NCBI RefSeq assembly: GCF_038025025.1
Contig: NW_027117344.1
Span: 868,001 to 932,000, forward strand
Source: Phyllosticta citribraziliensis
Taxonomy: Eukaryota
Direction: 5' to 3'
Length of the DNA: 64,000 nt
Part shown: piece after piece, positions 36,001 to 54,196 of the stretch
How the letters are laid out: the number at the start of each line of letters is the position of its first letter
Position numbering within the stretch: the stretch's first letter is position 1
Made by a program: the position numbers and the translations under genes
Notes under the pieces: generated by a model
Told to the model about the DNA's origin: nothing
Databases searched by the model: none
Seen by the model: only the letters and a program-made list of their open reading frames with translations

Positions 36001-36266
36001 ATATGATGCGAACGACGCCATCTGCACTGCCCAGAAAAACATTCTCGGACCCAGAAGCAACAGCGGTTATATTCCCCCTCTATGATACGTCAGGTTGGCC
36101 TCTTGCGCATCGACACGGATCGGGGTACCTCGAAGAGCGACGAGCTCTCATCGTCGGGAAGCTGGACTTGAGAGACATCAAAGAACTTGAAAGATTTCCA
36201 CTGCGACAGTCAGCCCAGAGCCAATCGGAATGATGAGATGCAAAGTAATACCCCTGGAAGCGCCAT
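33086..36266 (-). CDS. VPS11: HOPS/CORVET subunit Vps11 (Pep5)
   Basis: Multi-exon gene starting MALPG-WKSFKFFDV. Contains AVGFANGAVTVVRGDLIHDRG, YGDHLYQKGDYDTAM, EPSQVIRKFLD, LLLNCYAKLKD and a C-terminal RING-H2 (CQSC...HFMCNHSFHQRC...CPKC). Confidence 0.95.
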
Positions 36267-36844
36267 TTTCACAGCACATAATCTGCTGTAGGAGCTTGTG
36301 GATGGTGGCAGCTTTGGTCGTGGGGAGCTTGGTTGCGGTGACATGCAGGCTTGGTCCGAGCTGCTTGAGATCTAATCTTATCTCGGCTGACCTACGGATG
36401 TTTTGCCAAGAGGAATGAAGTCCGTGCACGGTAGCGCGACCTGACAGTCTGCCCTGCGCTGTCGACCTGTCCAGCGCCTCGTCGCCCTCGCTCTTCCTCA
36501 CCACCACCGCTCAAACCATCTCGCCATTAACCGCCACCAACCTTTCGCGACTACAGCTTACCCCAACTCTGCCGCTGTGTTGCTCGCCACTTGTTCCTTG
36601 TTGCCGCGTCTTGCACGTCCGCCCAACGCCTGGAACCAGCCGCCGCCCGTCTTCCGGCTTGTCGCGCCTCCTGCATCCCGTTCTTGAGGACAGGTCTTTC
36701 CAAAGCCATCTCCCACTGCCAGCTGCTCCTTCTCTACTCTTGCTTGAAGCTTAGCCAGCTTCTGCAACCCTCTACTTCTGTTCAGGCTTCAGCCTTCCAT
36801 CGCCCGATCTCAAACGCCCGACACAACCACACCGTCGCTCAAAA

Positions 36845-38757
36845 ATGGCCGACAAACTCAACCAGTCTCTCGACGACATCCTCAAGGCCAACCGCCGCAA
36901 GAATGTTCGCGCCAAGGGTGTTCGCCGCTCCGTCGGCGGAAAGCCTGCTGCCAGCGCTGCTCCCGTTGGAGGAGTGAAGAAGAAGACCAAGGTTTCCAAG
37001 CCCACCACGCAGCCCATTCCCACTGGACCATCTGCGAGAGGCTCTGGCGACAGCAAGATCCTTGTCAGCAACTTGGTACGTGTATTCCGCCTCAAACAAA
37101 GTCAACACCTTCTAACTCGCTACAGCCTCATGATGTCGATGAAGCTCAGATTAAGGTATGTTGAGCGCGAAGGCCGCTTAGCCTTGGACTCCTATCGCCG
37201 TTCCTTTTGAGACGCACGATCCTCGCATCTTCTTTGAGAACCTCCGGGGGGCACGTGGAAGTTTTTCAGATACCGCTCGCACACGCTGGCCGACCTCACT
37301 CCAACAAGGCAGATCTCTTGCATTCTCTTGCTCGCATTTCAAATTGCCTGATGCAGAGAGCGAGATTGATCCCTGTTGCACCGTTCTGTGTTACATCTAC
37401 TCCAGCATGATTGACTGCCTGGCAAGCAGCCCAGCTAGAGAGATGCAGATGGTTAAGAGTGGTGGTCAAGGGACCCACCTCTACTGGTGACTCCCATTCA
37501 CGACTTGGACTTTGAAACTGTCTTTGACAGCATTGGTGTCAGCGAGCAGCAGTGAACAGCACAGCACCATCCTGGAATTCGGAAGGGTCCACTCGCGGCA
37601 AATATCGTCCTGTTCAGGAACTTGCACGACTCTTTCGACTGGAACAAACCGGTGCGCGACTCGACCGGCTGCGACGGGCTGATACTAGCTGGCGACTGGT
37701 CTATTCCGTCCGACGCCGTCCGACGGACTGTCTTTATACCGAGACCACCAAGGCGTTTATGGATGCCCTATCGGGTCGCAACCGAGGAATCCGGCACTGA
37801 TTCAAGGGTCTACAAACCTTGTCGAAGAGATCTGAGTGAGCAACCGATGGCTGGGTGGCCATGCATGGCGTGGACCACTTTCCCGGGATTTAGACAGCTT
37901 GCCGAAGGCTTGGCTTACGACTTTGGCTCTCCCGCTTACTAACTTTCACTGCTGGCTCGCTGAACTGATGTTGTTATTGATATTCCTCTTGGGACCGCCG
38001 TCTGGTCGCGACGGTGTCGAGAAGCCGTGCACCTTCTTTGCGCTCAAAGATCTTCTGGGACTCGAAACTTTTGTGGTGATTCCCGACTAATCACATCGTT
38101 CTTCATAGGAGTACTTCAGCAAATCCGTTGGACCCGTCAAGAAGGTTCTCTTGACCTACGGCCCCAATGGCCAGAGCCGCGGAGTTGCCACAGTCATCTT
38201 CTCCCAAGCTGGCGCGGCGGCACAGGCTGCTGCCAAGTACAACGGAATCAAAGTCGACAACAGGCCGATGAAGGTTAGTTCTGCGAAGGATATGGAGACA
38301 GCGGACTCACTGACCATTCTCAGGTTGAAGTCATTCTTGGAGCTTCAGAGGTCCCCGCTCCGGCTCCGGCCAAGTCGCTTTCTGAGCGCGTTCAGTAAGT
38401 GCAACCTTGAAGATTTGTTGATCTTAACTAACAACGCTACAGGCAACCAAAGGCGGCCGCGAAGGCTCAGCCAAAGCCAGCGACTGCCAAGCCGGCTGCT
38501 GCGAAAGCAGGCAAGAAGCGTCGCGGTAGGAACGCCAACCGCGCGAAGCCCAAGACGGCAGAGGAGCTTGATGCGGAAATGCAAGACTACTTTGATGGCT
38601 CCAACCCTGCCGCTGCGGACGGCGACACTGCCATGGCGACCAACGGAGGCGCTGTTCAGGCCATTGCCAATGGAGGCGATACCGGCATGGAGGATGAGGT
38701 TATGGTGAGTTGTACGCCAAAGGGTTCAATATGCCAAACTGACAACAAGGACAGTGA
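36845..38757 (+). CDS. YRA1: mRNA export adaptor / RNA annealing protein Yra1 (ALY/REF)
   Basis: Exons 36845-37075, 37126-37155, 38109-38273, 38324-38394, 38443-38704 and 38755-38757 (stop only). N-box MADKLNQSLDDIL, RRM (SKILVSNLP...EYF...SRGVATVIF...VDNRPMKVE) and C-box KTAEELDAEMQDYF. Confidence 0.93.
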
Positions 38758-39228
38758 ATGGACACAGCTTGAAGACCGGGCGAGGAAATGACAAATTGAG
38801 ATCACTCAACGCAGGTCTAGCCCGAGGCCTGACGTTTACCTTATTCATTGCTACCGGTGCACACCGGTGCTTCCCTTTTCTCCTTGTAAAATGACTTGGG
38901 CGCTCGACGATCAGAATGCTTTCTTCGCCCGGCTGGGAACTGCCTTTCCTTTTCCTGTTTCTCCAACAAACCCCTTTATTCTCGGCGACGGATTGGTCTT
39001 CCACACGGACGAAATCGAAGTTTGCGCATACATAGAGACGAGCAGAAAATTCCAAAAGGAAATTGGCAACCCACACCGAGAAAGGCACGCGCCAGGCACG
39101 CGCCTTGTGACGATGCTTGGCAGCAGAGGTGATGGACACGATGGCATGAGTGGGTGCGTCATGTGTGACGTTGAAAGGAGAACACAGCCCACACCGCACA
39201 ACAAAGGCGGCGGCGTAAAGGCCGTGGT

Positions 39229-39821
39229 GTGGGGCGAGCTCGAGCTTGGACTCCCCAGCCCCAGACGCGGCTGTGGGGACGCGGAGTTGAGGATCAAGAG
39301 AGCACCACACGGCGACAGGCCAAGGCGGGCACGACAAAACCGAAAGGTGCTGAGTAATTTAATTGCCTGATCCAGCTCGTCTACCTCGGTGACCGGGTGA
39401 AGGACCTTGGAACCCCCTGCTCGGGCGCTCGCTCGAAGGGAAGATGGCTGGCGAGGCGGCGGTGGGGCTCCTGGGGTGCTCTCATGGGGCCTGGGGCAGG
39501 GCCTCGCTGTTGAGGCGTGCACAACGGGGCGGTTGAGCTGCGCATAATGAACAAAGAGGTGGACCTGGATCGCCCAAGGCGTCTAGGATGAACGACCATG
39601 GAGGTTTGCGCGATAAGTAACGGCGCGTCGAGGCCAGAAGCTGATTCGCAGCAGTTACCCCGCCCTCAGCCCGAGGGCCCCTCTCGCCATCCATCCATCC
39701 CTCAACCCGAGTCCAACCAACCTAGCCCGGTACCGTCAAGCGCCACCGACAAGATGGCCGCCCGGCCCTTGTGGGGTGCTTCCTTTGCCAGTCCATTACT
39801 TAAAGATCTCATCTACCCCGC
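39229..39821. promoter_or_regulatory. Cluster of CreA/Mig1-type SYGGRG sites upstream of the ALDH gene
   Basis: Eleven matches on both strands, starting at 39229, 39253, 39259, 39273, 39281, 39462, 39471, 39491, 39658, 39771 and 39816. Confidence 0.5.
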
Positions 39822-39896
39822 GTGCATTCCCTCAGCCACTCCTCACTCCTCTCTTCTCTTTGTTTCCAAGATACCCCGTTTCTCCCACGTTTCACA

Positions 39897-41806
39897 ATGA
39901 CTTCTACCACTCTCTCGACGCCGTCCACCGGCAAGTACGAGCAGCCAACAGGCCTGTAAGTGTGCCCGCGCTGCCTGATGCGCCCCTCCGGAGCTGACGT
40001 TGCCTCTGCTACAGCTTCATCAACAACGAGTTTGTCAAGGGCGTCGACGGCAAGACCATCGAGGTCATCAACCCCTCCACGGAAGAACTCATCTGCTCCG
40101 TACACGAGGCCACTGAGAAGGATGTCGACATTGCCGTTTCCGCTGCCCGCAAGGCCTTTGAGGGCGAGTGGAGACACGTCACCCCCGAGAACCGTGGAAG
40201 GCTTCTCGTGAAGCTCGGCGAGCTCTTCGAGAAGAATGCCGACAAGCTTGCTGCGGTGGAATCGTTGGACAACGGCAAGGCCTTGTCCATGGCCAAGGTC
40301 GACGTCAACATGGCAGCTTCCACCCTGAGATACTACGGAGGTTGGGCAGACAAGGTCGAGGGCAAGGTTGTCCACACCAACAATGACGTCTTCGCCTACG
40401 TTAAGAAGGAGCCGGTAAGTTGTACACTCAATCGACCGTGTAGCCCTGCCTAATTGGCATGCTAGATTGGCGTTTGCGGTCAAATTATCCCGTGGAACTT
40501 TCCTCTGCTCATGTGGGCATGGAAGATTGGCCCTGCCGTTGCCACCGGCAACACCATTGTTATGAAGACGGCTGAACAGACTCCACTTTCCGCGCTTGTC
40601 GCTTCGACTCTGATCAAGGAGGCGGGCTTTCCCCCTGGTGTTATTAACAACATCACTGGCCTCGGCAGGATTGCTGGTGCGGCCATTGCTTCGCACATGG
40701 ACATTGACAAGGTCGCCTTCACTGGCTCAACGCTTATTGGCCGTCAAATCCTGAAGGCTGCCGCGGGCTCCAACCTGAAGAAAGTGACACTTGAGCTTGG
40801 TGGCAAGAGCCCGAACATCATCTTCGCGGATGCCGACATTGACGATGCCATTTCGTGGGCCAACTTTGGCATTTTCTTCAACCACGGCCAGTGCTGCTGT
40901 GCTGGTTCTCGCATCTACGTCCAGGAGAGCATTTACGACAAGTTCTTGGCTCGCTTCAAGGAGCGCGCTACCCAGAACGTCGTTGGCAACCCCTTCGATG
41001 CTAACACTTTCCAAGGACCTCAGGTCTCTCAGTTGCAGTTTGACCGTATCATGGAGTACGCCGTCCGCTCTTGCAGTAGCTGTACTCTGCTAACTTTGAG
41101 ATAGGTACATTGAGCACGGCAAGCAATCGGGAGCAACTCTTGAGACTGGTGGAAAGCGCAAGGGCGACAAGGGATACTTCATCGAGCCGACCATCTTCTC
41201 CAACGTACCAGACGACGCGAGGATAGGCAACGAGGAGATTTTTGGCCCCGTGGTGGTGCGTTTTCCCCAGCCCCATCAGCGGAACTGAACCTCCACTCTT
41301 GATGACTTAACTAACTCAAACGTAACAGACGATTTCAAAGTTCAAGGACGCAGACGAGGCTGTCCGGATCGGCAACGACTCGAACTACGGATTGGCTGCA
41401 GCTGTAAGTTCCCCAGCTTCAACCAATAATACCTTTTTTTGGTTCCCCACCCGCCACCTCCGCAAACGTGCGCAGCTCCGGACCATCTGTGCTCCGCTAG
41501 CGGTTCGGGTTGCATTACCCCGAGGCTCTGTCCCATCACCCCTCTCCCCTGCTCTCCATTGTCCCTGTACCATTACTGACGCATCCTTTGCAGGTCCACA
41601 CCAAGGACCTCAACACTGCCATTCGCGTGTCAAACGACCTTCGCGCCGGCACTGTTTGGGTGAACAACTACAACCAACTGCACCACGCCCTGCCCTTCGG
41701 TGGCTACAAGGAGAGCGGTATTGGCCGTGAGCTCGGCGAGGAGGCTCTTGCAAACTACACGCAAACCAAGACCGTCAACATCAGACTGGCCGGTTCGATA
41801 TTCTAG
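39897..41806 (+). CDS. aldA: NAD-dependent aldehyde dehydrogenase (AldA/ALDH2-like)
   Basis: Multi-exon gene from [27 protein letters not shown]. Motifs [30 protein letters not shown] (catalytic Cys), [16 protein letters not shown]. Confidence 0.93.
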
Positions 41807-43561
41807 ATTGCCCAAGTGTGTGGGGCTTTGAGTTTGTTCGTGGTGGGGAAGAGCAGTTAAGAGAGCAAGTTGACAAGGGAAAAGTTGAACATCGGACCAA
41901 CGAGAAGATCTCTCATGATGGCTTGCATATGAAATGTTCAGATCACGAATGGAAGTGAGCAATAGGCCAATGAGCCAGCTATGTCTTGCGGGAGACGAGA
42001 CTGTGGGGATTCCCGGCAGCTGAAGCCAAGTTAACCTAGTATCTGTAAATATTCACAAGCTTTCTGCTTTCATTGGGCCTTGCATAAAGCAGACACGCGT
42101 GAAGTGCTTTTGGTTTCTGTCCCTCGGAAGACGGCTCTTCCTTCTGCCGCATCCGAACCCGAGCCCTCTACCCGCTTCGGAAGCTAGCCTGTAACGAGCC
42201 AAGCGCCAAATCCAAACGTCAACCAAAAGCTTGACCGAAAAGCCTACAGTTTCCAGCCTTCTCTTTCTTGTCACCACTGCCCACAATAGCCCGCCCTAAT
42301 ATTTCCTTTCCTCTTTGAGACTCCGCGCTCTCCATTCCTTTATCGCGAGTCTTGTTTCTTCTTCGACTCGGCTCCGGTCGGAAGGACGGCACCGTGATGT
42401 CTTGGTCCCTTGCTTCGTGACGATTTCGATCTGCAACCCACGCACGACGTCGTCAAGGAACGGCATCATTATTCCACCATCTACGGGACGAATGTGCCGC
42501 GAGCCAGTCCAATTCAAGCTCTTTTGACGAGACACGGCCTCGCTGTAGATGGCAGCGAAGACTTGCTTCGGGTCATCTTGGACCGGGCTATCACGACACC
42601 GCCAACGCCACCCCCGAGAGAGCGTGGCGTGCTTGTTCGGCCTCGCTGTCTGCGCGGAGCGCGATCGGAGACTGAGCCTTCTTGAGCGTGGTGGCGAGGA
42701 TGCAGCCGGGGGATTTTGGACGGTAGTTGCGCTGGCGCGGCTTGCTCTGCTCGCCAGCCTTTGGTTGGCGGTGATGAAGGTCAAGAAAGCCTGCTGATGT
42801 TGTGTCAGCTTGTCGTTCAACGGTAATTCGTATTTTTGGGGCAAAGTCTTCGATTGGTGGCATCAAGAAGTGCTCATCAAGCCTCCCAATGATCTTTTCG
42901 CAGCTCCGCGACCATGGTGGTCTGACCATAGACCTCGAAGGTTGGACTTCGAATGCGATGCTCTATCGGAGAGATGGACATGCCGGCTCTTTTGACCTTA
43001 GAGCCAAATGGCCTCAACTCGTAGGCTTCAAGTAGGTATCGTACTTTCCTTTGGCAATTGAAAAGAGCAAGGAAAGAAGAAAAGAAAGAAAAGAAAAAAA
43101 GCCATGGCCTCTCTGGAGGATGGTAGTTGTGCGATCAACTAGCAGTCATCCCTTTCAAGTCTCCGTACTGCTCTTGGACGCCCAAGAAGATGGCGATATT
43201 GTTTTTCTCGGGATGCCGTGCGTGTAGTGTACATGTAAGCTGTGGCCAGCAAAGCAGGAAGGCGCGTCCCTTCCACGTCGTCGCGCGCCGAGTCGCCCAT
43301 CTGCTCCTTCCAACGGACAGTCGAGCGCCGCCCGCCCGCCGCCGTCGTGGTGGTAAACAGACGCGTCTGCAACCTCGCACCTCGCTCCCTCTTCTTTTCT
43401 CTCCACCTTCTCCCTTACGACTGCCGCTTTCAACGGCAAACGTTTCGTATTCGCCTTCGGGTTCGTCTTCTCCTTGCACCCGCGCTTGCCAGCTTCAGCT
43501 CAAAGAAGTGGAATCAGCAGGCACACACGACAACATCGAAACAGCGAGAAGGTCCACGAAC

Positions 43562-46500
43562 ATGACACCCAGGAAACCACCTACAGAGCCCCGTGCCGAG
43601 AGATGGAAGCTGCAAGCTACTGCTCAAGACCCGGGAGGAGGGTCGAAAGCGAGTGCTTACAGTCCTGCTAAGCTTGCTCACGGCAAACAGGCCACGCAGC
43701 CTTCCGGTTTGCCTGAAGCTTCAGCTAGACCTACCTTCCCCAAGCCCGCTCAATCGGCGCCTGGGCCACCTGACATAGGCTCGTTTCGCCCGACTCGGGC
43801 TGCGCCCAGCTTGACATCCTCGGCACAGGACAGGTCTACTGATATTCAACGCACTATAGCCCAAACCGCTCTGGCTCGCATTGCGGGTCCATCTCAAGAG
43901 GCTGCCAGTCAGGGAGAAGACGCAGAGATCCCTAAGCATTGTGCAGGTACACCAACTTCTGAACCAAAGTGTGCTGGTTCTCCCACGGAGACCGCCGCTC
44001 ACGGAGAAGCAAGGCCCAGTCACCCAAATGTTTCGAAAATCTCTGCTCCTCTTGAAGATGAGACCCGGCGCGTGGGCCATGCCGCAGCACCTTCAGCTCA
44101 CAAAGATGATTTTGCTCGCCCAAGATTTTCCACCGCAAACTTTCACAGCCTGCCCATGAAACCTCCACCCATGGATCCGCCTGTCTTTGGCCATCCATAT
44201 GTTCACCCCTCGAGAGCTTCGCGCACTGCTCGTCCTGGCGAAATGCGCGAACACAGGGAAAGCCAGCACGATCACGCGGCACGTCGCGGAGAGGATCGTC
44301 ATCGCGGCCGAGATCCATATCCGGATCATTGCGTCTATTCAACCGATCCAAACTTGCCCAAAATCAAGGTTGAGGATGATGACCAACTTACATATGAACT
44401 GGAACTGGCTCCCGTCCGTCAAGAAGCCCCGCCAGCTCCAAGTCCCCGAACACAGCGTGCAATCGCTCGAGAAGAGTCGAAGGTCAGTCAATTGTTTCCG
44501 CAACAAGTTGAGCAGTCTCCTGGTGTAGTATGATACAGTCAAAGTGGACATGTGCTGACGTTTGAATGAAGACTACCGGCCACAGCGCCGAGCAAAGCAA
44601 GTTGCAGTATTGTGGCCGATGCGCCAATGACCACAAGACCGAAGATTGCCAAGCCGAAGAATGCCGACGATGTCGTCTCTACCATCTCGCTAATGTGAAT
44701 TGTTTCGAAGCTGGATCGGTGCGAGCTAAAAGAGAACACGCTGCGGCGTCAACGGATGCTCCCCAACAGCAAGCAGCTCAGCTCTTCCCGCATCAGATCA
44801 GGGCTGCACGTCGACAGCAGACTCAGAATCAAGTAAGTGAGCCACCACTGGCCTTCAACGTTAGCAAGTTTCAAACCGTACGCAGAGACTAACAATACCT
44901 GGAACGAGCAGGCTGGAAAACATAAGACCAAAAATGTCTGCGATCGCTGTGGAGGAGGCCACAAGAAAATGCCATGCAATGTCAAACAGTGTCACAAGTG
45001 CGGTTCCATCCACGGCAAGAAAACATCCTGCGCCAAAGCTGCCAACCAAAGGGCCGAAAGAGAAGCCGCTCGACAAACTAGCATCCAGCAATTTCCACAG
45101 CAAGATGAAGGCAGCGCCAATGCGACAGACAAGACGGAGGGAAATGACGTTGCAATGGCCGCCAATACGACAAGCAAGACTGAGGGAAACGACATTGGAA
45201 TGGCCGCCAATGCGACAAGGAAGATTGAAGGAAACAACATTGGAAAAAGCACGGCAGACGATCAAAGCTCTGAGAAGCAATGCAGTCAATGCGGATACGT
45301 CCACAAAGGGGCATGCAAAACCCCATTCTGCCATCATTGCTGCTCTTTTCACACCATCAGGATCAATTGCTTCGAGGCTCGCACCATCAGGGCGCAAAGA
45401 GACGCCTTCTATGCGGCGAAAGAAGGCAATCCTGAGGCTCGAGCGGAGCCTCACACAGAGCCACGTGCCCAGATCCAGTCGCCGCAACCACAGACTCTTC
45501 CAGGCCTCCAGGGACCACAGGGCCAGACTCAACATGACAACAGTCTGTACGCGGAAACCTTGAAGTTCTTCTATGAAAGAGATGGACCTGAGGGTGCTCT
45601 CAATTTCTACGCTAGATTCGGGGCTGGCCGACAATTCCAGCTTCCCGTGCGCCCATCGCCACAGACTTCTGTCACTCGTTCGATCGAAGAGTCGATGGTG
45701 CAGCCAACGCCCACGGACCACAATATTGCCAAGCAACGACAGTCCCCAGGAAATGATTCTACAGATTGGGGCACCGATTACACGTCGGAAAGCGAAGATG
45801 AGGAGGAAAGGGACTCTCCGAAAGCCGTCCCAAAGGCCAAGCGCAGGCGCCTGGACAAGGAGGATGACGATGGCCTGTCCACGTTGCGGCGTGAACGCAA
45901 GAGGAAGACAACAAAGCCAAGTCCTAAGGCCAAGCGGTCCGAAGCGAAGATGGTCCAGCGTACCAACAAGCGCAAGCATGAAAGCGAGGACGAGCTGGAG
46001 GACCAAGAGCCTAAGAGACGTAAATCCGGAAAAGAGAGTCAGCCTGTCAAGCGGAAGTCGCAGGCCATGACCAAGACCAAGCAGCCCATCAAGAGAAAGC
46101 CCGAGTCGGACAGCAGTCACAGCAGCGATTCATACAGCAGCGACGACGAACTCCCGCCACCAAAGCCGACCAAAGCCAAGCAACCCATCAAGAGAGCACC
46201 CAAGTCGGATAGTAGTAATAGCAGCGATTCAGAAAGCAGTGACGACAAACCCATGCCACCAAAGCCGACCAAGGCCAAGCAACCCATCAAGAGAGCTCCC
46301 GAGTCGGACAGCAGTGACAGTAGCGAATCGGAAAGCAGTGATGATGAACCCACGCCACCAAAGCTGACCAAGGCCAAGCAACCCATCAAGAGAGTTCCCG
46401 AGTCGAACAGCAGTGACAGCAGCGATTCAGAAAGCAGTGACGACGAATCCAACCCACCAAAGCCGAAGAAGCTCAAGGTTCAAGATTCGAGACCTAAAGT

Positions 46501-46651
46501 CGCAGCGAAAAAGTCCAAAAGAGAGGCGGAGCAAAAGGCGGAGAAGAAGCCAAAGAAAGTTGCCGTCGTCACAATCAAGACTCCCGCAAAAGAAGGAAAT
46601 AAGAAGACTGAGAAGACCCACGGAAAAAAGAAGAGCAAGAAGCACAAGTAG
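43562..46651 (+). CDS. Orphan ~990-aa disordered protein with three paired CCHC zinc-knuckle modules and a basic/acidic repeat tail
   Basis: Exons 43562-44527, 44572-44832 and 44912-46651, joined in frame by canonical introns (GTATGA..GCTGAC..AAG; GTAAGT..ACTAAC..CAG). The start could lie further upstream in the same ORF. Confidence 0.7.
45116..45250 (+). repeat. Coding 45-bp tandem repeat x3 (ANATDKTEGNDVAMA-like)
   Basis: Seen in both the translation and the DNA. Confidence 0.8.
46073..46468 (+). repeat. Coding 99-bp tandem repeat x4 (KAKQPIKRAPESDSSDSSDSESSDDEPxPPKPT)
   Basis: Four imperfect 33-aa units are visible in both protein and DNA. Confidence 0.9.
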
Positions 46652-48269
46652 CCGCCCACCACGCGTCTCCGCTACGGGCAGCCGTCATGCCTGATTGACC
46701 GCGCACGTCTCTGGCGATTGTACCCCTAAACCCTTTGTACCTTTCACCAGTCACAGTCATTGGACGCATTCCAATCGTGGAGTAAACCACGTGAAAAAAT
46801 CAGCTCGGCGAATGATGCTCACACGTCCACGATCGTGCCAGGTGGAACCTTCTCCCTTCTCTTCCTCTGTGGATTTGGAGGGAAATGCCAAGATGAGCTC
46901 AACCTGTCTTTACTTGATGTGGTGTCATCAGAGGTTTCCCTCTCTCGGGTGGTTGGAGAGGGGGGTGGGCGGAAAGAAGACTTGGGGTTGTGGGGGCGTG
47001 GATGGAGGGCTTTGGACGGCGGTGTAGCTGGATGCTGGGTTCAAGTACAGAAAGGTCTAGAGCCATCAATCTCTGTTCAGACGTAAGAAAGTTCCAATGA
47101 CACCTCCTTCCCACTCTCCACATTGGCGGTCTGAGTCGGTGATGAGTAGCAGCCGCAGCAGCTCCAGTAGAACTCTAATCCTCTCTTTGCTCTATTTCCC
47201 GTCTATCTATACGTTGCGGTCGCCGCCTTGATATTCGATGAGCTAGCACAGCAATGGGGAGACAAACAATGCACTGGAAGAACAGGAAAACGCGAAGGAA
47301 GGGGGAGGGGGTAAAAGCACGCGGCTTTTGTATAGCGGGGAAAGAGAAGAATGGAATAATGCCTGGAGACTGGGTACAAAGAAACGTGAGCAGTTCAGCA
47401 GTAGTCGCAGCATCAGCAGCGGAGTGGCACAACGGAGAAGACATTGGCAAAACACAATTTGATGCCTGAGTATGGTACAATACAGAGAAAGCAAAAAGAA
47501 AAGTTGGGACACAGCACAGCAGCAGAACAAAACAAGACCAAGCGACAGACACATCAGAAAAGCACACACACGCAATCTGAAGTCAACCGGATTCGCCTAT
47601 CCGCCTGCTAGTCCGCCAAACGCCGTCGCAGTAAAGATCAATCGAGGATGGTTTTGATTTGAAGGGGGAGGGGGACAGGTGGGGACAGGTAAGGGGGAAG
47701 TGGGAGTACCGGTACGTAGGCAAGAGGAGTATCGGAGGCGAGTAACGTAGAGAGAAGAAAGGAAGGGGAAGTGCTTGGTATTTCGAATCAACCAGAGAGC
47801 GCACGGCGCTCGGACGCAGCGCGGTGGGTGGGGATCCAGGAACACGGGGGAGGAGATAAAAAACTGGGGGGAAGATGCGGACACGGACGGTCCACCGCCG
47901 GCTGCTTGTTGACGTGTGGGGTGCCGCGCCGCGGACCGGAGAAAGGTTGGTTGGTGCCTCGTGCGTGCGTTGCGCACGGGGAATGGTGTCATCATGGTTT
48001 ACAGATGTCGTAGAGTACTGTAGTTGCGGAGGTTCCTTGTGTGTGAGAGATGCCTGAGCTAAAGGTGTCAAGCTTAGCGCGGAGCGTGCACCTGCACGCC
48101 TGAAGGGACAAGACGAGCGAGACATCGAGGTACCTAGCAGCCAAGCAGTTCCGCTCGCCCGCGTGGTCCCGTTCCGCCGAAGCCGCGCGACGGCAAGCGG
48201 TGCGGTAGTTTTTTCTTGATTTAGTTGCGTGGTTGGATGGGTCGAGGTGGTTGGATGGTGGGTTGGCGC

Positions 48270-49256
48270 TCACATGCGTGCCGAATCCACGCTCCTGTCA
48301 CGCTGCATGTCGTCTGGCATGGACCGGCGTATCGCCTCGCGGACGGGGAGGAAGCCTGCCACGCGCCATTTGCTTCCCTCTCCATCCCAACGCACACCAT
48401 TCTCATCTGCATCCACGTCGACCAGCACCGCATCCACCTCCTCTTTGCGCGCGAACTCGCAGTCGCTCTCCTCGCCGCAGTACAGCACCGCCTCTTCGCG
48501 CCCGACGCCCAACCGCGCCAGCGTGTCTGCAAACGGCGTCTGCCCTGTCTCGGCGTCTCGCTCGCTGCTTCCCACCACCGTCATCGCGTCGACAAAGTTG
48601 GACAGATACAGGTGCTCGATGGCCCACGCCGCCTGGTCGCGACTCATTTCGGGCTCAACGGCAACGATGACCTTGGCTCCCGTGCGCATCAGTGTGCGGA
48701 ACAGGGCCAACAGTCCCCTCGGCGGCAACAGATGCGTGTAGTACGTCTTCTTGTAGAGGCGGAACCACGAGTCGAGCTGGTCTTCGGCGGGTTCTGGGCC
48801 GAACTTGCGCAAGGTCGCGCCGAAGAGGTGCTTTTGATACGCAGGCCAGGGCTGGCCGTTGGCGGAGGCTGCCGAGGCGCAAGAGCTGTAGGTTTCTTCG
48901 AGGGCGGAGAGTGAGGGAGATGTCGGGGATGCCAGCATAGACTGCATGGCGCTGAGGACGGCGGAGACGGCGGCTTTGGTCGCTTGTCCGCCCGGGTGCA
49001 GCGTGCTGTTGAGCATGAAGACATGACAGCTTTTGGAGATGAGGAAGGGGGTGAATTGGTCCATGATGTCGGTTCCGGAGATGCTCGAGGCCTGTTTCTC
49101 GGGCACTTGGAGAAGCTGATCCGGGCGAGCTGCAGCTGGAGTGGGCGAGGGCTTCGAGTGGGCGCGTTTGAAGCTAGGTCTGCTGTCGAACATGCCAGGA
49201 TGGTCCTTTTCAGGGTTTGCGGCGGCCGTGGTAGAGAGAGAGAGCGTGTCGGCCAT
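48270..49256 (-). CDS. HAD-superfamily protein, apparently catalytically degenerate
   Basis: Single-exon ORF, most likely starting MADTLS. It follows the HAD layout (FMLNSTLH ~ FDLDDTLH; PPRGLLALFRTL..GAKVIVAVE; F..TLARLGV..EEAVLYCGE). Confidence 0.7.
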   Translation of the reverse strand: MADTLSLSTTAAANPEKDHPGMFDSRPSFKRAHSKPSPTPAAARPDQLLQVPEKQASSISGTDIMDQFTPFLISKSCHVFMLNSTLHPGGQATKAAVSAVLSAMQSMLASPTSPSLSALEETYSSCASAASANGQPWPAYQKHLFGATLRKFGPEPAEDQLDSWFRLYKKTYYTHLLPPRGLLALFRTLMRTGAKVIVAVEPEMSRDQAAWAIEHLYLSNFVDAMTVVGSSERDAETGQTPFADTLARLGVGREEAVLYCGEESDCEFARKEEVDAVLVDVDADENGVRWDGEGSKWRVAGFLPVREAIRRSMPDDMQRDRSVDSARM

Positions 49257-50027
49257 GGCAGCACGTGGGGTGCGTGGTTGGTCGGTTGATTTGCGAATGT
49301 TTAGGTTTCGATCTTGGCTTTGTGCTCCGACGGGGTCAGAAATTGGAAAAGGGTCGCAGTGAGGGAGGTCGACGGCAGGCCGGCGCAGATTGAGGGAGCG
49401 CAGAGCTTTAATCAGTGGGAATGGGAGTGAGGGCGACATTGGATTGTCGGCCAGGGGGCTGACCTGAGAAGCTGATGCAGGGGTGCGTCGACTGTCTTGG
49501 TGTCTGTCTGGGCAGCAACGATGAAGACGGCACAGGCACTGAAAAGGAAACAAACCTTTGAACTACCCACCGTCAACTAGGCCCACGCGAAGGACTGGTC
49601 ATGTCCAACTGCTCCAGTCACACAGCCTAGCCTGTCAGTCGAAGCCGTCATCTGCGTTTTTGCGTTTTGCAAACGTCAGGTGCAACGGTCGACGCTTTGA
49701 AACGGGGGTTGTTGCATCCGCACCCATGATGGTGTCGCGCGTGCGACTTGCAACGGCCAGAGCGACTCGGCGACTGCACAGGATAGGACAGCGGAGAGGG
49801 GGCAGTGAATAATCAACAACCGGAGTCGGTCGTCGAGAGAGTGTAAGAGGCCATGATGCATGATGGTGCCAGCCAGGTAAGCGAACAGATCCTCGCCTCA
49901 GAGGCCTGTGCCGAGGTCGACTTCCCCGCAACATCATCTTGACCATCCGGTCCCCATTGACAACACACGCCTCCATTGCCTTGACAACAGATAGAATTTC
50001 TTTTCCAATTGTCCAAGGGTTGCCACC

Positions 50028-51294
50028 ATGAGTGCAAAGCGCAAAGACATGCCGACCCTTCCCAAGAGCAAGGAACTCTCGTTAGCGCCACCAGACCCAG
50101 GCACCTTCGAAGGTATCCCCAAGATTCAACGTATCGCCGATGACTCGGTAGGACCGTGAGTTGTCCTCGAGAACTTCCTGTCTCGTACAAGCCTGCTAAT
50201 TCATTTTCAAAACCAAGACGGCTCAAGGGCAAAGTAGCCATCATTACCGGTGCGTGCTACCAGGACGGCAAGGGGGCCAAGCCTTCTTCCAACCAACAAA
50301 ACGACACACGTGCGCGCAAAACCAAGACAACGGCTTGCTAATCCAAATTGCTTCTGCGCAGGTGCAAACAGCGCCCTGGGCATCGGACGGGCCACGGCGC
50401 ACCAGTTTGCCCAGAACGGCGCAAAAGCAGTGTTCCTGTGCGACTTTAGCGGCGACCACCTCGACACGCATAAGCGAGAGCTGAAGGCACTGTATCCAGA
50501 CGTCGAGGTGCACGCCCGCCGGTTCGACGCCGCCGACGAGGCGTCGGTCAAGAGCGTCGTCGAAGAGGCGCTGAAAAAGTATGGAAGGCTGGACGTCATG
50601 TTTGCCAACGCCGGCATCGCCCACGGGGAGCACCTGTTTGAGACAGAGGGCGAGAGCTTCATGAACTCGATGCGCGTCAATGCTCTCAGGTACGGCTACA
50701 TACCTATCCCTCATCTCCTCCCGGCCGATCATTGCAGTTCTAATACGCAGCGTCCAGCGTCTTCCTGGCAGCCAAGTACGCGGCCAAAGCCATGACGGTC
50801 ACGTCGACCAGCAAGCCGTACCCGTTGGGGTCGATTGTGTCGACGGCGTCGGTGGCCGGGCTGCGCTCCAACGCGGGGGCCACCGACTACTCGGCCTCCA
50901 AGGCGGCCGTCATGTCCATCATGCAGACGGCCGCCTTCCAGCTGACGGGCTCGGGCGTGCGCTGCAACGCCATCTGCCCCGGCGTCATCGAAACCGGCAT
51001 GACCAAGCCCATGTACGACATGGCCCGCGCCCGCGGCACCCAGCGCCGCATCGGCCAGCTGAACCCGCTGCAGCGCGGCGCCGTCGCCGACGAGGTCGCC
51101 CGCGTCGTCTTGTTTTTGGCCAGTGATGAGGCTAGCTACGGTGAGTTTTGGTTCCCGGTTGGACAGGGGTGAAACCGTCTTGGCTGTCGTATGTATGCAC
51201 GTTTGCTGACTCCAAAACAGTCAACGGGCAGGCTTGGGCGGTGGACGGGGGCCTGAGTGCTGGGCATCCCTTTGTGCCAGGCAAGCTAGCATAG
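50028..51294 (+). CDS. Short-chain dehydrogenase/reductase (3-oxoacyl-ACP-reductase-like)
   Basis: Multi-exon gene with RLKGKVAIITGANSALGIG, DVMFANAG, catalytic YSASK, RCNAICPG and ASYVNGQAWAVDGG. Confidence 0.9.
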
Positions 51295-52142
51295 GGGTTG
51301 TGGAGAGGGAAAAGAGGTGAGTGTGGGAAACGGCGAAAAGAAGAAGAAGTTGACCAAGAGAATCACATTTTGTACAGTGCAAGCCACGCGACATGAGAAT
51401 GATGATGATGAAAGCCTGCAACGTCTTTCCGTATCCAAACCTACCTCTCCAACCACCCCTAACTGCGGTTGTCGACCTAGCCGGGAGCATTATCTCAAAT
51501 TCTGCCCATTCCACCGGTCAGAGCTGCTACGTTTACTCGCGATGCAGGGCAACAGTCCGGCGAACGGGCAGGCAAACCAGTCCGTCAACCAGTCCGTCCA
51601 TTTCTGAATGCCTTGGCGCAGCAAGTACCTGGACCCCCAACCTCGCATAATGGAAGAGGGGCAACCGGAAAGGCGGGGGACGGAAAGACAAGTCAGTGAA
51701 ATAGAAATCAAACACCGTGATGGATACCCAGATAAAAGCTCTTCGAACTTGTCCATACATGGACCGTGTATGTAGATGAGCAGGCCAGTAAGCAGCATAA
51801 CTACTTCATTTGTTGCACAAGGAAAGAAAATGCTACCAAACTAGAACGCTACCCCGCGGTTTCGTCATGCCGCGTAAGTAAGTAGAGGTGGTGGTGTATA
51901 GGTATGCCCGGCGAGGCGAGTCACTTAGCGGGCGAGGAAAAAGAGGGAGGTTGGTTACTTGGGTTCGCGCATCGTGAGTGCCTAGTTGCGTGCCTACCTT
52001 ATGTACTACTTGGGTACCTACTACCTATCCACATATCTGCCTACCCTCAGCACGACGCTACGCCGCCGTGCGAGCAGGCGACAGACAGGTTGACAAGTTG
52101 ACCCTCAGCTGCCAACCTGGTATATCGACCCACCCACCTCCC

Positions 52143-52166
52143 TACATACATACATACATACATACA
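52143..52166. repeat. Microsatellite (TACA)6
   Basis: Read directly. Confidence 0.85.
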
Positions 52167-52493
52167 TACCTGCTCTGGCCCCCTTGCCTAGGTAGAAGGA
52201 GGAAGTGCAGTCCATCCACGAAGCAAGCCATCAAGCACCTACATCCAACAGCGACGTTCTCGCCACATCGCGGCATACCACGTATATGTCCATACAGCTG
52301 GCCATCGCCGAAGTAGCCGGTTAGTTCCAAAACCAACCCAACCTCGTCACCTCCCTAGCCATGAAGCGACCCAGCTACCTTACCTAGCAGCTAGCCACCA
52401 AGCTAGGCCGTTCGTCCGCAAAGTAAACATGCAGCTAACAGACGAACAAACGTGTTTCGTTTCCCCCGCCGCCGCCGCCGCTGCCCCCGCACG

Positions 52494-52533
52494 CTTGCCT
52501 TGCCTTGCCTTGCCTTGCCTTGCCTTGCCTTGC
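52494..52533. repeat. Microsatellite (CTTGC)8
   Basis: Read directly. Confidence 0.9.
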
Positions 52534-54196
52534 CTCGCATCGCATCCGCATGACATGACACATGACATGCCCGGCGTTGGTTGGCATATGTACCTAGCCA
52601 GCACTCGTCGTTGCCCAACTGTCTGCCCACCTCTCTCTCGCACTGCGAACCTGCCCTACCTTGGCGCGAACAGGTCGCCGCCCCACCGTTCGAGCCCGAG
52701 GCCTTGTTGCAGCTAGCTACTGCTTGATGCAGCTGCTGCCTACGCGTCCTACCGGCCGATGTAGCTGCATGGCGATGACGTGACGACACACAGGAAAACG
52801 GTTTATCTCAGGAAATTTGCTGGACCGGCCTTTTGTACTTGTTGGTAGTAGGTAGGTAGGTAGTACTCTCAAGGTAATCTAGGTAGCAAATGGCGATAAT
52901 GATACCATACATACCGGCCAGTAGTGCAAGTGGCCTACCCGGTTACCGTACAGTGAAACGGAGGAGGATGATGGCACTTGTTTTTTGTCCCCTTTTCTTT
53001 CTCTCCAATAGTCCTCCTCGTCACATCTCGTCTCTTTCTCTCAAACATACAGATGTTTGTATGAAATGTAGCAGCAACTGCGAGACTTTCAAGGAAAAAA
53101 ATGAAAAATAAAAGACCAATGAAGACTCCAAAGGCTCTCGCAAACCGAGAGGGGGAGAGCCCTGTCCTGTCCTGTCCGAGTTCAATCCATCCCATCCCAT
53201 GTCGGAAATTGTCTTCGGTCCAGCCAATACTGACGACCCATTTTTTGTAATGACTCTTTCTCCAAATCAGACCAATCCAAAACCGTATGAAAGAAAATGT
53301 GAACAACAATAATAAAACCAGTGCTGGTGTTCGGCGCACGTTGCCAAATCATGCCGCCAGAGAGAACAAAGGACCAAATCGAGAGAAATGTGTGGAAGAC
53401 ATTAAACCAATGTACTGGACGATGGCCGGTGGAGCGGCACAGCAGATAATCAAATCCCGCCTGTCTTTCTCGTCTGTTTGATTTGCAAAAGACTGGCAAG
53501 AAAGAAAAAGAAAAGAAAGGAAAAAGGGGGTGATTCGTCGTATTAATATTAAAGTCGAGTACCGTAATGACTGTTCAGGGCGTGAGGAAAGCAGACACCG
53601 TCTCCAGACGCCGAGATAACGAACGATAAGCCGAACCTTGAGAGGGCTGGACCTGAAGAGCGAAGCGGGAAAATAAATCGCTCCCTTGTACATCTTGCTG
53701 GATCTCGGAGCAGTCCGCGCCGGATGAAAAAAGGCCCCGGATTGGCGTATTAAGTAGTAATGAACGAATTAAAGCATTAAGCTCATCGAAACGCATCGAG
53801 TCGAGTCTGATGGCAGACAAAGGCCGTTGTCGCTCGCTCCGGCTTGAAAAGTACAGACAGACGGATCGTCGATCCAAACAAGCTCCAACGCCGACGCTGC
53901 TACCGTCCCAGAGAACACCATGGAGACAAGGCCGCGAAAAGATTTTGGCAGAAAGATCAATCAAGTAATGCGACAAACAGCAGCTTCGGAGCTGCAAAAG
54001 TATTCGCAGATCGGCTCGCCTCCAGAGCCGGGGTATATCCAGGAGGCCAATTCCGTGAGAGAAACAAATGTGCAGAGACATCGACAACCAAGATGCTCGT
54101 GCCGTAGTCGAAATGGTCCGATTTCGTGTCCGTAAGAAATGTCTCTTTGACGTGCAAAAAATGCCCAACGTCGCTATCGAACCAATGAGAGCGCGC

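What the first reader, a model, noticed from the sequence alone, without database searches (positions are those of the whole stretch)
44611..45403. Unrecognised paired zinc-knuckle module repeated three times in an orphan protein
Seen in sequence: three ~42-aa copies of C-x2-C-x3-H-x3/4-C-x4-C-x2-C-x3-H-x5-C, each followed by a shared helix-like tail (FEAGSVRAKRE / AKAANQRAERE / FEARTIRAQRD). They start at about 44611, 44939 and 45281, giving six putative Zn sites. The ligands and tail are conserved while the spacers diverge, which points to a selected folded module. Established: the canonical retroviral knuckle is C-x2-C-x4-H-x4-C, and x3 variants occur in some LTR-retrotransposon Gag proteins. 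Inference: this is a novel nucleic-acid-binding repeat domain or a domesticated Gag-derived gene that has gained introns. No pol sequence or LTRs are visible.
Basis: partly seen in the sequence, partly recalled or inferred. Interest (0 to 1): 0.72.

Follow-up and report, generated by a model that had tools for sequence, protein, structure and literature searches.

The report
Unannotated double zinc-knuckle repeat, fungal gene
A spliced gene of a Phyllosticta fungus encodes a mostly disordered protein carrying three copies of a small, previously unannotated zinc-binding module that also occurs in a few related fungi and probably binds nucleic acid.

Summary
Three copies of C-x2-C-x3-H-x3/4-C-x4-C-x2-C-x3-H-x5-C start at 44611, 44939 and 45281, each followed by a helix. 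They are the only copies in six frames of the window, and 0 of 20,000 shuffles gave one.

They lie in a three-exon gene on the + strand (CDS 43562-46651, 973 aa). Spliced contigs support both introns. The deposited Phyllosticta citribraziliensis model (P0001) is mis-framed and misses module 1 and half of module 2.

The protein is not an orphan. Orthologues exist in three other Phyllosticta species. The same module occurs, usually three times, in about 600-aa Aureobasidium proteins, once in Diplodia corticola, and in several unnamed records. None carries a Pfam domain.

AlphaFold2 gives each module two short hairpins capped by an 18-19-residue helix (pLDDT 82-93). No fold or sequence match to a known family is significant. 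Nothing supports a Gag origin: no Gag or pol domains, no LTRs, ordinary neighbouring genes.

Best reading: a Dothideomycetes-restricted, probably nuclear protein whose modules each bind two Zn and contact nucleic acid. Zn binding and nucleic-acid binding are inferred, not shown. It is a new variant of the CCHC knuckle theme, of moderate interest.

The parts
43562..46651 (+). Whole coding region of the gene (973 aa, three exons; stop codon 46649-46651)
   Evidence: The ATG at 43562 (MTPRKPPTEP...) matches the start of orthologue models P0002 and P0003. The spliced CDS translates to 973 aa without a stop.
43562..44482 (+). Exon 1: 307-aa Pro-rich (14%) N-terminal region, no recognised domain
   Evidence: No Pfam hit at E<=1. 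Composition. It is 87%, 51% and 31% identical to the P. citrichinensis, P. citricarpa and P. capitalensis orthologues.
44483..44571 (+). Intron 1 (89 nt, GT..AG)
   Evidence: A contig of run X3 (a relative, 90-95% alike) joins 44478|44568, given as 'cut +4', which is 44482|44572.
44572..44832 (+). Exon 2 (87 aa), carries module 1
   Evidence: Reading frame. It is collinear with P0002.
44611..44754 (+). Module 1: CGRCANDHKTEDC-QAEE-CRRCRLYHLANVNC plus helix (FEAGSVRAKRE...)
   Evidence: Regex hit at 44611. The AlphaFold2 model of 44584-44772 has mean pLDDT 82, with strands at residues 8-10 and 15-17 and a helix at residues 40-57.
44833..44911 (+). Intron 2 (79 nt, GT..AG)
   Evidence: A 2784-nt contig of run X1 (0 differing letters, same organism code as the window) joins 44832|44912.
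44912..46651 (+). Exon 3 (579 aa plus stop), carries modules 2 and 3, the FFYE block and the charged tail
   Evidence: Open frame 44837-46651. The X1 contig covers 44912-46800 without a difference.
44939..45085 (+). Module 2: CDRCGGGHKKMPC-NVKQ-CHKCGSIHGKKTSC plus helix (AKAANQRAERE...). It is the evolutionarily labile copy.
   Evidence: Regex hit. In the AlphaFold2 model of 44912-45700, blocks covering residues 11-50 have pLDDT 77-87 and the helix spans residues 40-58. The module is absent from P. capitalensis, lacks its second knuckle in the P. citrichinensis model, and has its last Cys replaced by Phe in P. citricarpa.
45115..45245 (+). 45-bp tandem repeat (2.9 copies) inside the acidic, disordered linker between modules 2 and 3
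   Evidence: Tandem Repeats Finder, 86% matches. Linker pLDDT is below 50. Copy number differs between species.
45281..45424 (+). Module 3: CSQCGYVHKGAC-KTPF-CHHCCSFHTIRINC plus helix (FEARTIRAQRD...). It has the x3 spacing that is the family norm.
   Evidence: Regex hit. pLDDT is 84-93 and the helix spans residues 153-171 of the model. 78 of 84 family modules have x3.
45560..45640 (+). Conserved 'LKFFYERDGPEGALNFYARFG' block, predicted beta-hairpin; Phyllosticta only
   Evidence: Strands at residues 217-224, 229-236 and 241-243, pLDDT 64-80. It is 48% identical to P. capitalensis, while flanking regions are 20-26%. It is not aligned to Aureobasidium proteins by hhalign.
45860..46648 (+). 263-aa charged tail: 27% Lys+Arg, 16% Ser, with alternating basic runs (RKRK, KRRK) and acidic-Ser runs (ESDSSDSSESESSDDE). 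It includes a 99-bp repeat in 4 copies at 46069-46466.
   Evidence: Composition and runs. Tandem repeat. No Pfam hit.

Best explanation
This is a single-locus, spliced, transcribed cellular gene of Phyllosticta citribraziliensis. It encodes a 973-aa, largely disordered protein that is probably nuclear. The protein carries three copies of a roughly 48-aa zinc module that no curated family describes. Each module has two consecutive CCHC knuckles (C-x2-C-x3-H-x3/4-C, a 4-residue bridge, then C-x2-C-x3-H-x5-C). The last Cys starts an 18-19-residue basic amphipathic helix that packs back on the knuckles. Each module most likely holds two Zn ions in sequential sites (ligands 1-4 and 5-8). I propose the modules work like the tandem knuckles of retroviral nucleocapsid or Lin28: small basic Zn-stabilised surfaces that grip single-stranded nucleic acid. 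Three of them strung on flexible linkers would give multivalent binding. The Lys-rich and acidic-Ser tail would supply nuclear or nucleolar targeting. Shown here: the repeat, the gene structure, splicing, conservation and taxonomic range, the absence of any curated family, and a confident predicted fold. Inferred: Zn binding, the sequential ligand topology, nuclear location, and nucleic-acid binding.
For: Repeat and its significance. Gene model and splicing. Selection on the module: 8 ligand columns plus an Ala three residues after the last Cys are invariant across 8 modules from 6 proteins. In 84 modules from 33 sequences, ligand 7 is His in 84 of 84 and ligand 8 is Cys in 83 of 84. Modules 1 and 3 are the conserved islands between Phyllosticta species. 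Range: a profile of the 3 modules run against 1.84 billion representatives gave 9 proteins at E<=0.001. Eight of these are Phyllosticta, Aureobasidium, Diplodia or unnamed fungal-like proteins with the same pattern. A word-indexed profile search listed 32 proteins at E<=1 (weakest 4.3e-14); the named ones are all Aureobasidium, Phyllosticta or Diplodia, and none has a Pfam domain. Fold: mean pLDDT 82 and pTM 0.58 for module 1; the same hairpin-hairpin-helix layout for modules 2 and 3 with pLDDT 77-93; linkers below 50. For sequential knuckles: a lone first knuckle survives in the P. citrichinensis model (CDRCGGGHTDIPC), a lone C-x2-C-x3-H-x3-H unit exists in the Diplodia protein P0008, and the eIF3g knuckle in solved structures has the same C-x2-C-x3-H-x4-C spacing (CRLCGNDHMTMNC). 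For nucleic-acid binding and a nuclear site: the modules are basic (net +2, +10 and +4). The tail has 71 Lys+Arg in 263 aa with KRRR-, RKRK- and KRRK-type runs. Aureobasidium relatives carry an RKRGAD...KKLRRAK stretch just before module 1. The language-model look-up points weakly (0.85-0.87, below the 0.9 line) at zf-CCHC clusters.
Against: No experiment or computation here shows Zn or nucleic-acid binding. No zf-CCHC or other nucleic-acid-binding family matches even at E<=10. Matches to Lin28 (E 0.8-5.8) and eIF3g (E 0.37-1.4) are not significant. The best PDB sequence match pairs ligands 1, 2, 5 and 6 with the two CxxC of the RPA12 zinc ribbon (E 1.4e-4 for the whole chain, best stretch 0.038). 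The weak Pfam strays are cross-braced fingers (ZZ, B-box), so an interleaved topology is not excluded. I could not inspect model coordinates. Ligand 3 (His) is Leu or Ile in 24 of 84 modules, namely every Aureobasidium-type third module, so that site cannot be a standard CCHC there. Module 2 is lost or damaged in 3 of 4 Phyllosticta species, so three intact modules are not required. In the window's own organism, run X1 has no contig bridging 44171-44776. Transcription of module 1 is therefore shown only in a relative.
Confidence: 0.5

Rival explanations
1. The module is a protein-binding (or histone- or peptide-binding) cross-braced two-zinc finger in the manner of PHD, ZZ, B-box or MYND domains. 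Ligands 1, 2, 5 and 6 would hold one Zn and ligands 3, 4, 7 and 8 the other. The protein would be a nuclear scaffold or chaperone rather than a nucleic-acid binder.
For: The highest (all non-significant) Foldseek rows are PHD, C1, AN1 and SMYD-MYND fingers. The stray Pfam hits are ZZ (E 0.065) and B-box (E 0.13-0.55). The RPA12 zinc-ribbon alignment pairs the two CxxC motifs. The alternating acidic-Ser and basic tail is a composition common in nuclear chaperones (the comparison is recalled).
Against: All those matches are far from significant: Foldseek E>1 and TM 0.2-0.3, and VIA Z<2 on all 141 re-aligned chains. Lone first knuckles exist in P0002 and P0008, which is hard to square with an obligate cross-brace. 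The x3 and x4 gaps inside each half are knuckle-like.
Confidence: 0.28
2. The gene is a domesticated retroelement Gag or nucleocapsid that has gained introns.
For: C-x2-C-x3-H-x4-C knuckles are reported in some retroelement Gag proteins and in a Cryptococcus protein with a DDI1-type aspartic peptidase domain (search listing; passages of PMC13732481). The language-model look-up lists a zf-CCHC_5/Gag cluster at rank 12, score 0.85.
Against: No Gag, capsid, protease, RT or integrase family matches in the protein or in 12 neighbouring ORFs, whose only hits are Aldedh and RRM_1. The only direct repeat of at least 60 nt in 36000-54000 is the gene's own 99-bp tandem array. There is one copy in the window. 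No retroelement protein is among the 9 hits in 1.84 billion representatives. There is no Gag or NC row in the top 50 viral fold matches, all with E>0.5. The gene has conserved orthologues in four Phyllosticta species.
Confidence: 0.05
3. The modules are decaying relics in a fast-evolving disordered protein and no longer have a specific ligand. The conservation seen is only what is needed to avoid misfolding.
For: Module 2 is lost, truncated or mutated in 3 of 4 Phyllosticta species. One P. capitalensis strain variant (P0011) has the last Cys of module 1 replaced by Phe. Aureobasidium third modules lack ligand 3. The linkers and tail carry young tandem repeats.
Against: Modules 1 and 3 keep all 8 ligands in all four Phyllosticta species' representatives. 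The pattern persists across Botryosphaeriales and Dothideales. Non-ligand positions are also conserved: Gly after ligand 2, Pro before ligand 4, Ala three residues after ligand 8, and Arg in the helix.
Confidence: 0.12

Closest known systems
Retroviral-type CCHC zinc knuckle (Pfam zf-CCHC, PF00098), in tandem as in nucleocapsid or Lin28
   Same: Both are short C-x2-C...H...C units, often with Gly after the second Cys (3 of 6 half-sites in the window, most Aureobasidium ones). Two units sit side by side in a basic context. Lin28 chains appear in the PDB profile search.
   Different: The spacing is x3, not x4, before His in 6 of 6 half-sites. The second unit ends x5-C on a helix. The bridge between units is 4 residues. 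No HMM match was found (0 of 8 modules at E<=10). Lin28 E-values are 0.8-5.8, which is not significant.
eIF3g (Tif35) zinc knuckle
   Same: It has identical C-x2-C-x3-H-x4-C spacing and a similar C-x-x-C-G-N-D-H core (CRLCGNDHMTMNC against CGRCANDHKTEDC), seen in chains 6zu9_r and 4u1e_G.
   Different: eIF3g has a single knuckle next to an RRM, with no second knuckle and no capping helix. The match is not significant (E 0.37 to 1.4).
Single C-x2-C-x3-H-x4-C knuckles reported in print
   Same: The same variant spacing is described in a Cryptococcus neoformans protein (CNAG_05305, CFTCGAYHWSDQC) and in dinoflagellate RRM-DEAD helicases. I read passages of PMC13732481 and PMC12787238.
   Different: Those are single knuckles in proteins with other domains. 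The paired form with helix is not mentioned. 'CX2CX3HX3C' occurs in 0 papers of the library.
Zinc ribbon (N-terminal ribbon of RNA polymerase I subunit RPA12)
   Same: Two CxxC knuckles on two hairpins. The profile aligns ligands 1, 2 and 5, 6 to the ribbon's two CxxC (E 1.4e-4 for the chain).
   Different: The match rests on the Cys pattern alone (best stretch E 0.038). The ribbon has no His ligands and no second metal site. No fold match was found.
Nopp140/SRP40-type nucleolar tails (recalled comparison)
   Same: Both have alternating acidic-Ser clusters and Lys-rich stretches in tandem repeats.
   Different: No Pfam family matches the tail. The likeness is compositional only, and it is absent from the Aureobasidium relatives.

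Membership tests
zf-CCHC (PF00098) retroviral-type zinc knuckle | C-x2-C-x4-H-x4-C spacing | tested here: not met
   All 6 half-sites have x3 between the second Cys and His. The last gap is x4, x3 or x5.
zf-CCHC (PF00098) retroviral-type zinc knuckle | Match to the family HMM | tested here: not met
   No hit at E<=1 for the three exon translations or for 10 relatives. No zf-CCHC-type family appears at E<=10 for 8 of 8 single modules.
Retroelement Gag / nucleocapsid | Capsid-like Gag domain in the same protein | tested here: not met
   No Pfam family matches exon 1, 2 or 3 at E<=1.
Retroelement Gag / nucleocapsid | Adjacent pol (protease, RT, integrase) and flanking LTRs | tested here: not met
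   Of 12 ORFs in 38-54 kb, only Aldedh and RRM_1 match. The only direct repeat of at least 60 nt in 36000-54000 is the internal 99-bp array.
Retroelement Gag / nucleocapsid | Multiple dispersed copies in the genome | not testable with these tools
   No whole genome is held for this window. Within the window there is one locus.
Tandem-knuckle RNA binders (Lin28 ZKD type) | Two CCHC knuckles separated by a short linker | tested here: met
   Two CCHC units are separated by 4 residues in all three modules.
Tandem-knuckle RNA binders (Lin28 ZKD type) | Significant sequence or fold similarity | tested here: inconclusive
   Lin28 chains score E 0.8-5.8. No fold match reaches E<=0.001 or Z>=5. Small domains give little power.
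Tandem-knuckle RNA binders (Lin28 ZKD type) | Binds single-stranded RNA | not testable with these tools
   This needs a binding assay.
Zinc ribbon | Two CxxC knuckles sharing one Zn on a three-stranded sheet | tested here: inconclusive
   The RPA12 alignment has E 1.4e-4 for the chain and 0.038 for the best stretch. Model coordinates could not be inspected. No ribbon appears among the significant fold matches, because there are none.
Nopp140/SRP40-like nucleolar proteins | Family-specific conserved C-terminal domain | tested here: not met
   No Pfam hit on exon 3. Only the alternating acidic-Ser and basic composition is shared.

The most novel reading that the evidence does not exclude
The double knuckle plus capping helix is a self-contained two-zinc domain family that has not been described. 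It would have arisen within Dothideomycetes (Botryosphaeriales and Dothideales so far) and would be used in threes. It would have its own way of recognising nucleic acid, distinct from retroviral or Lin28 knuckles. It tolerates loss of one His in the third copy, which hints at a three-ligand or alternative metal site.
Probability: 0.4. Interest if true: 0.5.

Novelty: new variant of a known kind. Interest (0 to 1): 0.4.

Why it matters
This result would add a small, easily expressed zinc domain to the catalogue and give a name to a set of 'hypothetical proteins' in Phyllosticta and Aureobasidium. It would also correct a mis-framed public gene model that hides two of the six zinc sites. Lineage-restricted nuclear nucleic-acid binders are candidate regulators of traits specific to these fungi. 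Nothing here ties the gene to a phenotype, and the module is a variation on a well-known theme. The value is therefore in annotation and structure, not in concept.

Tried and rejected
- **Whole-genome copy count:** no genome is held for the window.
- **ESM Atlas, whole P0003:** no usable hit. On module 1 it gave only sub-threshold leads of 0.85-0.87.
- **Fold searches of the module 1 model:** Foldseek against PDB gave 0 matches at E<=0.001. VIA-align against 48,161 chains gave a best Z of 2.6. VIA re-alignment of Foldseek's 141 chains gave none at Z>=2. Foldseek against viral models gave 0 at E<=0.001. For a 63-residue model this shows neither novelty of fold nor kinship.
- **RNA evidence:** no listed run is on record as RNA, so kind is a guess. 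I treat X1 and X3 as transcript-derived only because their contigs carry GT..AG joints. X1 has no contig over 44171-44776. The depth differences (306.9 against 4.9-11.1) cannot be interpreted.
- **X4 joint 44840|45037:** it is marked 'between: not known' and I left it unexplained.
- **Position-by-position orthology of the three modules between Phyllosticta and Aureobasidium:** hhalign gives one collinear alignment over all three (probability 98%, E 2.4e-13). However, 9 of 11 Phyllosticta and Diplodia modules score best against the Aureobasidium first-module HMM whatever their position. It stays unresolved whether the triplication is ancestral.
- **dN/dS:** not done, because no orthologue DNA could be fetched (the genome collections held are prokaryotic or viral).
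- **Earlier scan notes:** none found, by sequence or by place.
- **Literature:** five locus tags of the family occur in 0 papers. 'zinc knuckle' with 'Dothideomycetes' gave 6 listings, none relevant judging by title and abstract.
- **P0009 (a moth cysteine-proteinase inhibitor, E 7.7e-4):** it has no module by regex and I dropped it as a Cys-rich false positive.
Full report
**1. Observation**

The region lies in an ordinary, gene-dense stretch with GC about 0.54. Reading 44000-46200 and listing stop-to-stop frames shows three + strand frames that join through two GT..AG introns.

A regex over all six frames of the window finds C-x2-C-x3-H-x3/4-C-x4-C-x2-C-x3-H-x5-C three times, at 44611, 44939 and 45281, and nowhere else. 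The six C-x2-C-x3-H-x3-5-C half-sites are the only ones in 64 kb.

- Eighteen of the 19 Cys in exons 2 and 3 (666 aa) are ligand positions.
- None of 20,000 shuffles of those residues gave a full pattern. Half-sites averaged 0.00115 per shuffle against 6 observed.
- The copies are 32-37% identical over 50 residues, with 13 invariant columns.
- Pairwise BLASTP gives E = 2e-9 and 3e-9.

**2. Gene model and expression**

The CDS is 43562-44482, 44572-44832 and 44912-46651, giving 973 aa with no internal stop. All junctions are phase 0.

- A 2784-nt contig of run X1, identical to the window, joins 44832|44912.
- A contig of run X3, a relative 90-95% alike, joins 44482|44572.

The runs are not on record as RNA. 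I take them as transcript-derived because of these clean GT..AG joints. In X1 nothing bridges 44171-44776, so transcription of module 1 is shown only in the relative.

The best database hit, P0001 (100% identical over its match, named Phyllosticta citribraziliensis), is a 705-aa model. It reads exon 1 and exon 2 in wrong frames and so lacks module 1 and the first knuckle of module 2.

**3. Relatives**

A word-indexed search finds orthologues in P. citrichinensis (P0002, 869 aa) and P. citricarpa (P0003, 879 aa).

A profile of the three modules was run by HMMER against 1.84 billion representatives and gave 9 proteins at E<=0.001:

- the three above;
- P. capitalensis (P0004);
- Aureobasidium namibiae (P0007);
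- Diplodia corticola (P0008);
- two unnamed records (P0005, P0006);
- a moth protease inhibitor (P0009) that has no module and is a false positive.

An 8-module profile (A2) in the word-indexed collection listed 32 proteins at E<=1, the weakest at 4.3e-14. All the named ones are Aureobasidium, Phyllosticta or Diplodia. All are 'hypothetical', and none has a precomputed Pfam domain.

I then counted modules after dropping five proteins: P0001 (the window's own mis-model), P0009, and P0010-P0012 (redundant P. capitalensis cluster members). That leaves 84 modules in 33 sequences:

| Feature | Count |
|---|---|
| x3 spacer between ligands 3 and 4 | 78 of 84 |
| x4 spacer | 6 of 84 (only Phyllosticta modules 1 and 2) |
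| Ligand 7 is His | 84 of 84 |
| Ligand 8 is Cys | 83 of 84 |
| Ligand 3 is His | 60 of 84 |
| Ligand 3 is Leu or Ile | 24 of 84 (the third module of every Aureobasidium-type protein) |

Ligands 1, 2, 4, 5 and 6 were fixed by the regex and so say nothing.

Profile-profile alignment of Phyllosticta against Aureobasidium proteins is collinear across the three modules only (probability 98%, E 2.4e-13). The C-terminal halves are unrelated. Which module corresponds to which is unresolved.

**4. Conservation within Phyllosticta**

Identity to P. capitalensis by region:

| Region | Identity |
|---|---|
| Module 1 knuckles | 58% |
| Module 3 knuckles | 47% |
| Module 3 helix | 54% |
| 'FFYE' block | 48% |
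| Linkers | 4-10% |
| Tail | 17% |

Module 2 is the weak member. It is absent in P. capitalensis. It lacks its second knuckle in the P. citrichinensis model; that gap is 18-19 residues, the size of a small intron, so it may be an annotation error. Its last Cys is replaced by Phe in P. citricarpa. Only the window's species keeps all 24 ligands among the four.

**5. Fold**

AlphaFold2 on 44584-44772 with a 30-row alignment gives mean pLDDT 82 and pTM 0.58. It shows two short hairpins, each with a CxxC in its turn, a 3-residue helical turn between His and the fourth ligand, and a helix at residues 40-57 that begins at the last Cys.

A second model of 44912-45700 gives the same layout for module 2 (pLDDT 77-87) and module 3 (84-93). 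The linkers are disordered (below 50), and the FFYE block forms a beta-hairpin (64-80).

An invariant Ala three residues after the last Cys, and a conserved Arg in the helix, fit a helix packed on the knuckles. I had no access to coordinates, so the metal-site geometry was not examined.

**6. Comparison with known families**

- Pfam: nothing at E<=1 for the exons or for 10 relatives apart from stray sub-threshold hits. For 8 single modules at E<=10 there were only strays (ZZ 0.065, B-box 0.13-0.55, a Zn ribbon 0.13), and no zf-CCHC family.
- PDB by sequence: the RPA12 zinc ribbon (E 0.013, then 1.4e-4 with the wider profile; best stretch 0.038), which aligns the two CxxC pairs. Also the eIF3g knuckle CRLCGNDHMTMNC, which has the same x2/x3/x4 spacing (E 0.37-1.4), the UHRF2 PHD (0.28) and Lin28 (0.8-5.8).
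- Fold searches gave nothing significant.
- Literature: C-x2-C-x3-H-x4-C is mentioned in 8 papers of the library, as single knuckles in retroelement Gag proteins, a Cryptococcus protein and dinoflagellate helicases (listing; passages read). 'CX2CX3HX3C' and five locus tags of this family occur in none.

**7. Mechanism**

The most economical reading is two sequential knuckles per module. Three points favour this:

- The internal gaps are knuckle-sized.
- Lone first knuckles exist: P0002 module 2, and a C-x2-C-x3-H-x3-H unit in P0008.
- eIF3g shows the same unit standing alone.

An interleaved arrangement (ligands 1, 2, 5, 6 on one Zn and 3, 4, 7, 8 on the other) remains possible, as the RPA12 alignment suggests.

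The modules are basic, with net charges of +2, +10 and +4. The tail is 27% Lys+Arg, with KRRR-, RKRK- and KRRK-type runs alternating with acidic-Ser runs. Aureobasidium relatives have a basic stretch before module 1.

I therefore propose a nuclear, perhaps nucleolar, protein that binds nucleic acid multivalently through three Zn modules on flexible linkers. Zn binding, topology, location and ligand are all inferences.

**8. Rivals**

- A protein-binding cross-braced finger is the serious alternative (0.28).
- A domesticated Gag has nothing in its favour beyond the knuckle spacing (0.05). There is no Gag or pol family, no LTR, one locus in the window, no retroelement among the profile hits, and stable orthologues.
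- Decay without function is argued against by full ligand retention in modules 1 and 3 across orders (0.12).

**9. Verdict**

This is a real, selected, unannotated zinc module, restricted on present evidence to a few Dothideomycetes genera, in an expressed gene whose public model is wrong. It is a new variant of the CCHC knuckle theme rather than a new kind of thing. Interest is moderate (0.4).

Noticed in passing
window 44160-44990 (compared with P0001): The deposited protein model for this locus (P0001, 705 aa) starts at an internal Met in another frame and threads wrong frames through exons 1 and 2. It uses a piece of intron 2 and enters the true frame only at the second knuckle of module 2. 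The X1 contig joint 44832|44912 contradicts it.
   Followed up: yes
window 45115-45245: A 45-bp tandem repeat (2.9 copies, 86% matches) encodes NATDKTEGNDVAMAA-like units in the acidic linker. P. citrichinensis has about two units and P. citricarpa about one, so the array is young and variable.
   Followed up: partly
window 46069-46466: A 99-bp tandem repeat (4 copies, 85% matches) encodes a 33-aa unit (KAKQPIKRAPESDSSDSSESESSDDEPTPPKPT-like) in the charged tail. Copy number differs between Phyllosticta species: the tail alignment has 74-102 gap positions.
   Followed up: partly
window 45560-45640: A short block (LKFFYERDGPEGALNFYARFG) is conserved in Phyllosticta only and predicted as a beta-hairpin with pLDDT 64-80. 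It has no family and no counterpart in Aureobasidium proteins.
   Followed up: partly
window 44777 (run X1): The high-depth X1 contig (depth 306.9) ends at 44777 in sequencing-adapter letters. Exon 1 is covered only by short contigs of depth 4.9-11.1, and 44171-44776 is not covered at all. This could mean a 3' bias of the library or a shorter abundant transcript that lacks module 1. Contigs cannot decide.
   Followed up: no
window 44840-45037 (run X4): One X4 contig (depth 68.2, a diverged relative) joins 44840 to 45037 with non-canonical ends (GC..AA, 'between: not known'). Another X4 contig (depth 13) runs straight through 44408-45403. Two related genomes, or a diverged stretch over intron 2 and the first knuckle of module 2, may be present.
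   Followed up: no
P0005, P0007, P0013-P0035 (third module): In every Aureobasidium-type third module the first His ligand is Leu or Ile (CRDCGRYLNxPC), while the other seven ligands stay. This is a conserved three-ligand or alternative first site.
   Followed up: partly
P0011 against P0004, residue 399: Within one 90% cluster of P. capitalensis proteins, one strain has Phe instead of the last Cys of module 1. This is the same substitution seen in module 2 of P. citricarpa.
   Followed up: no
window 38109-38708 and 40466-41104: The upstream neighbours on the + strand are ordinary cellular genes: an RRM_1-containing ORF (E 1.7e-7) and an aldehyde dehydrogenase fragment (E 1.4e-82).
   Followed up: partly
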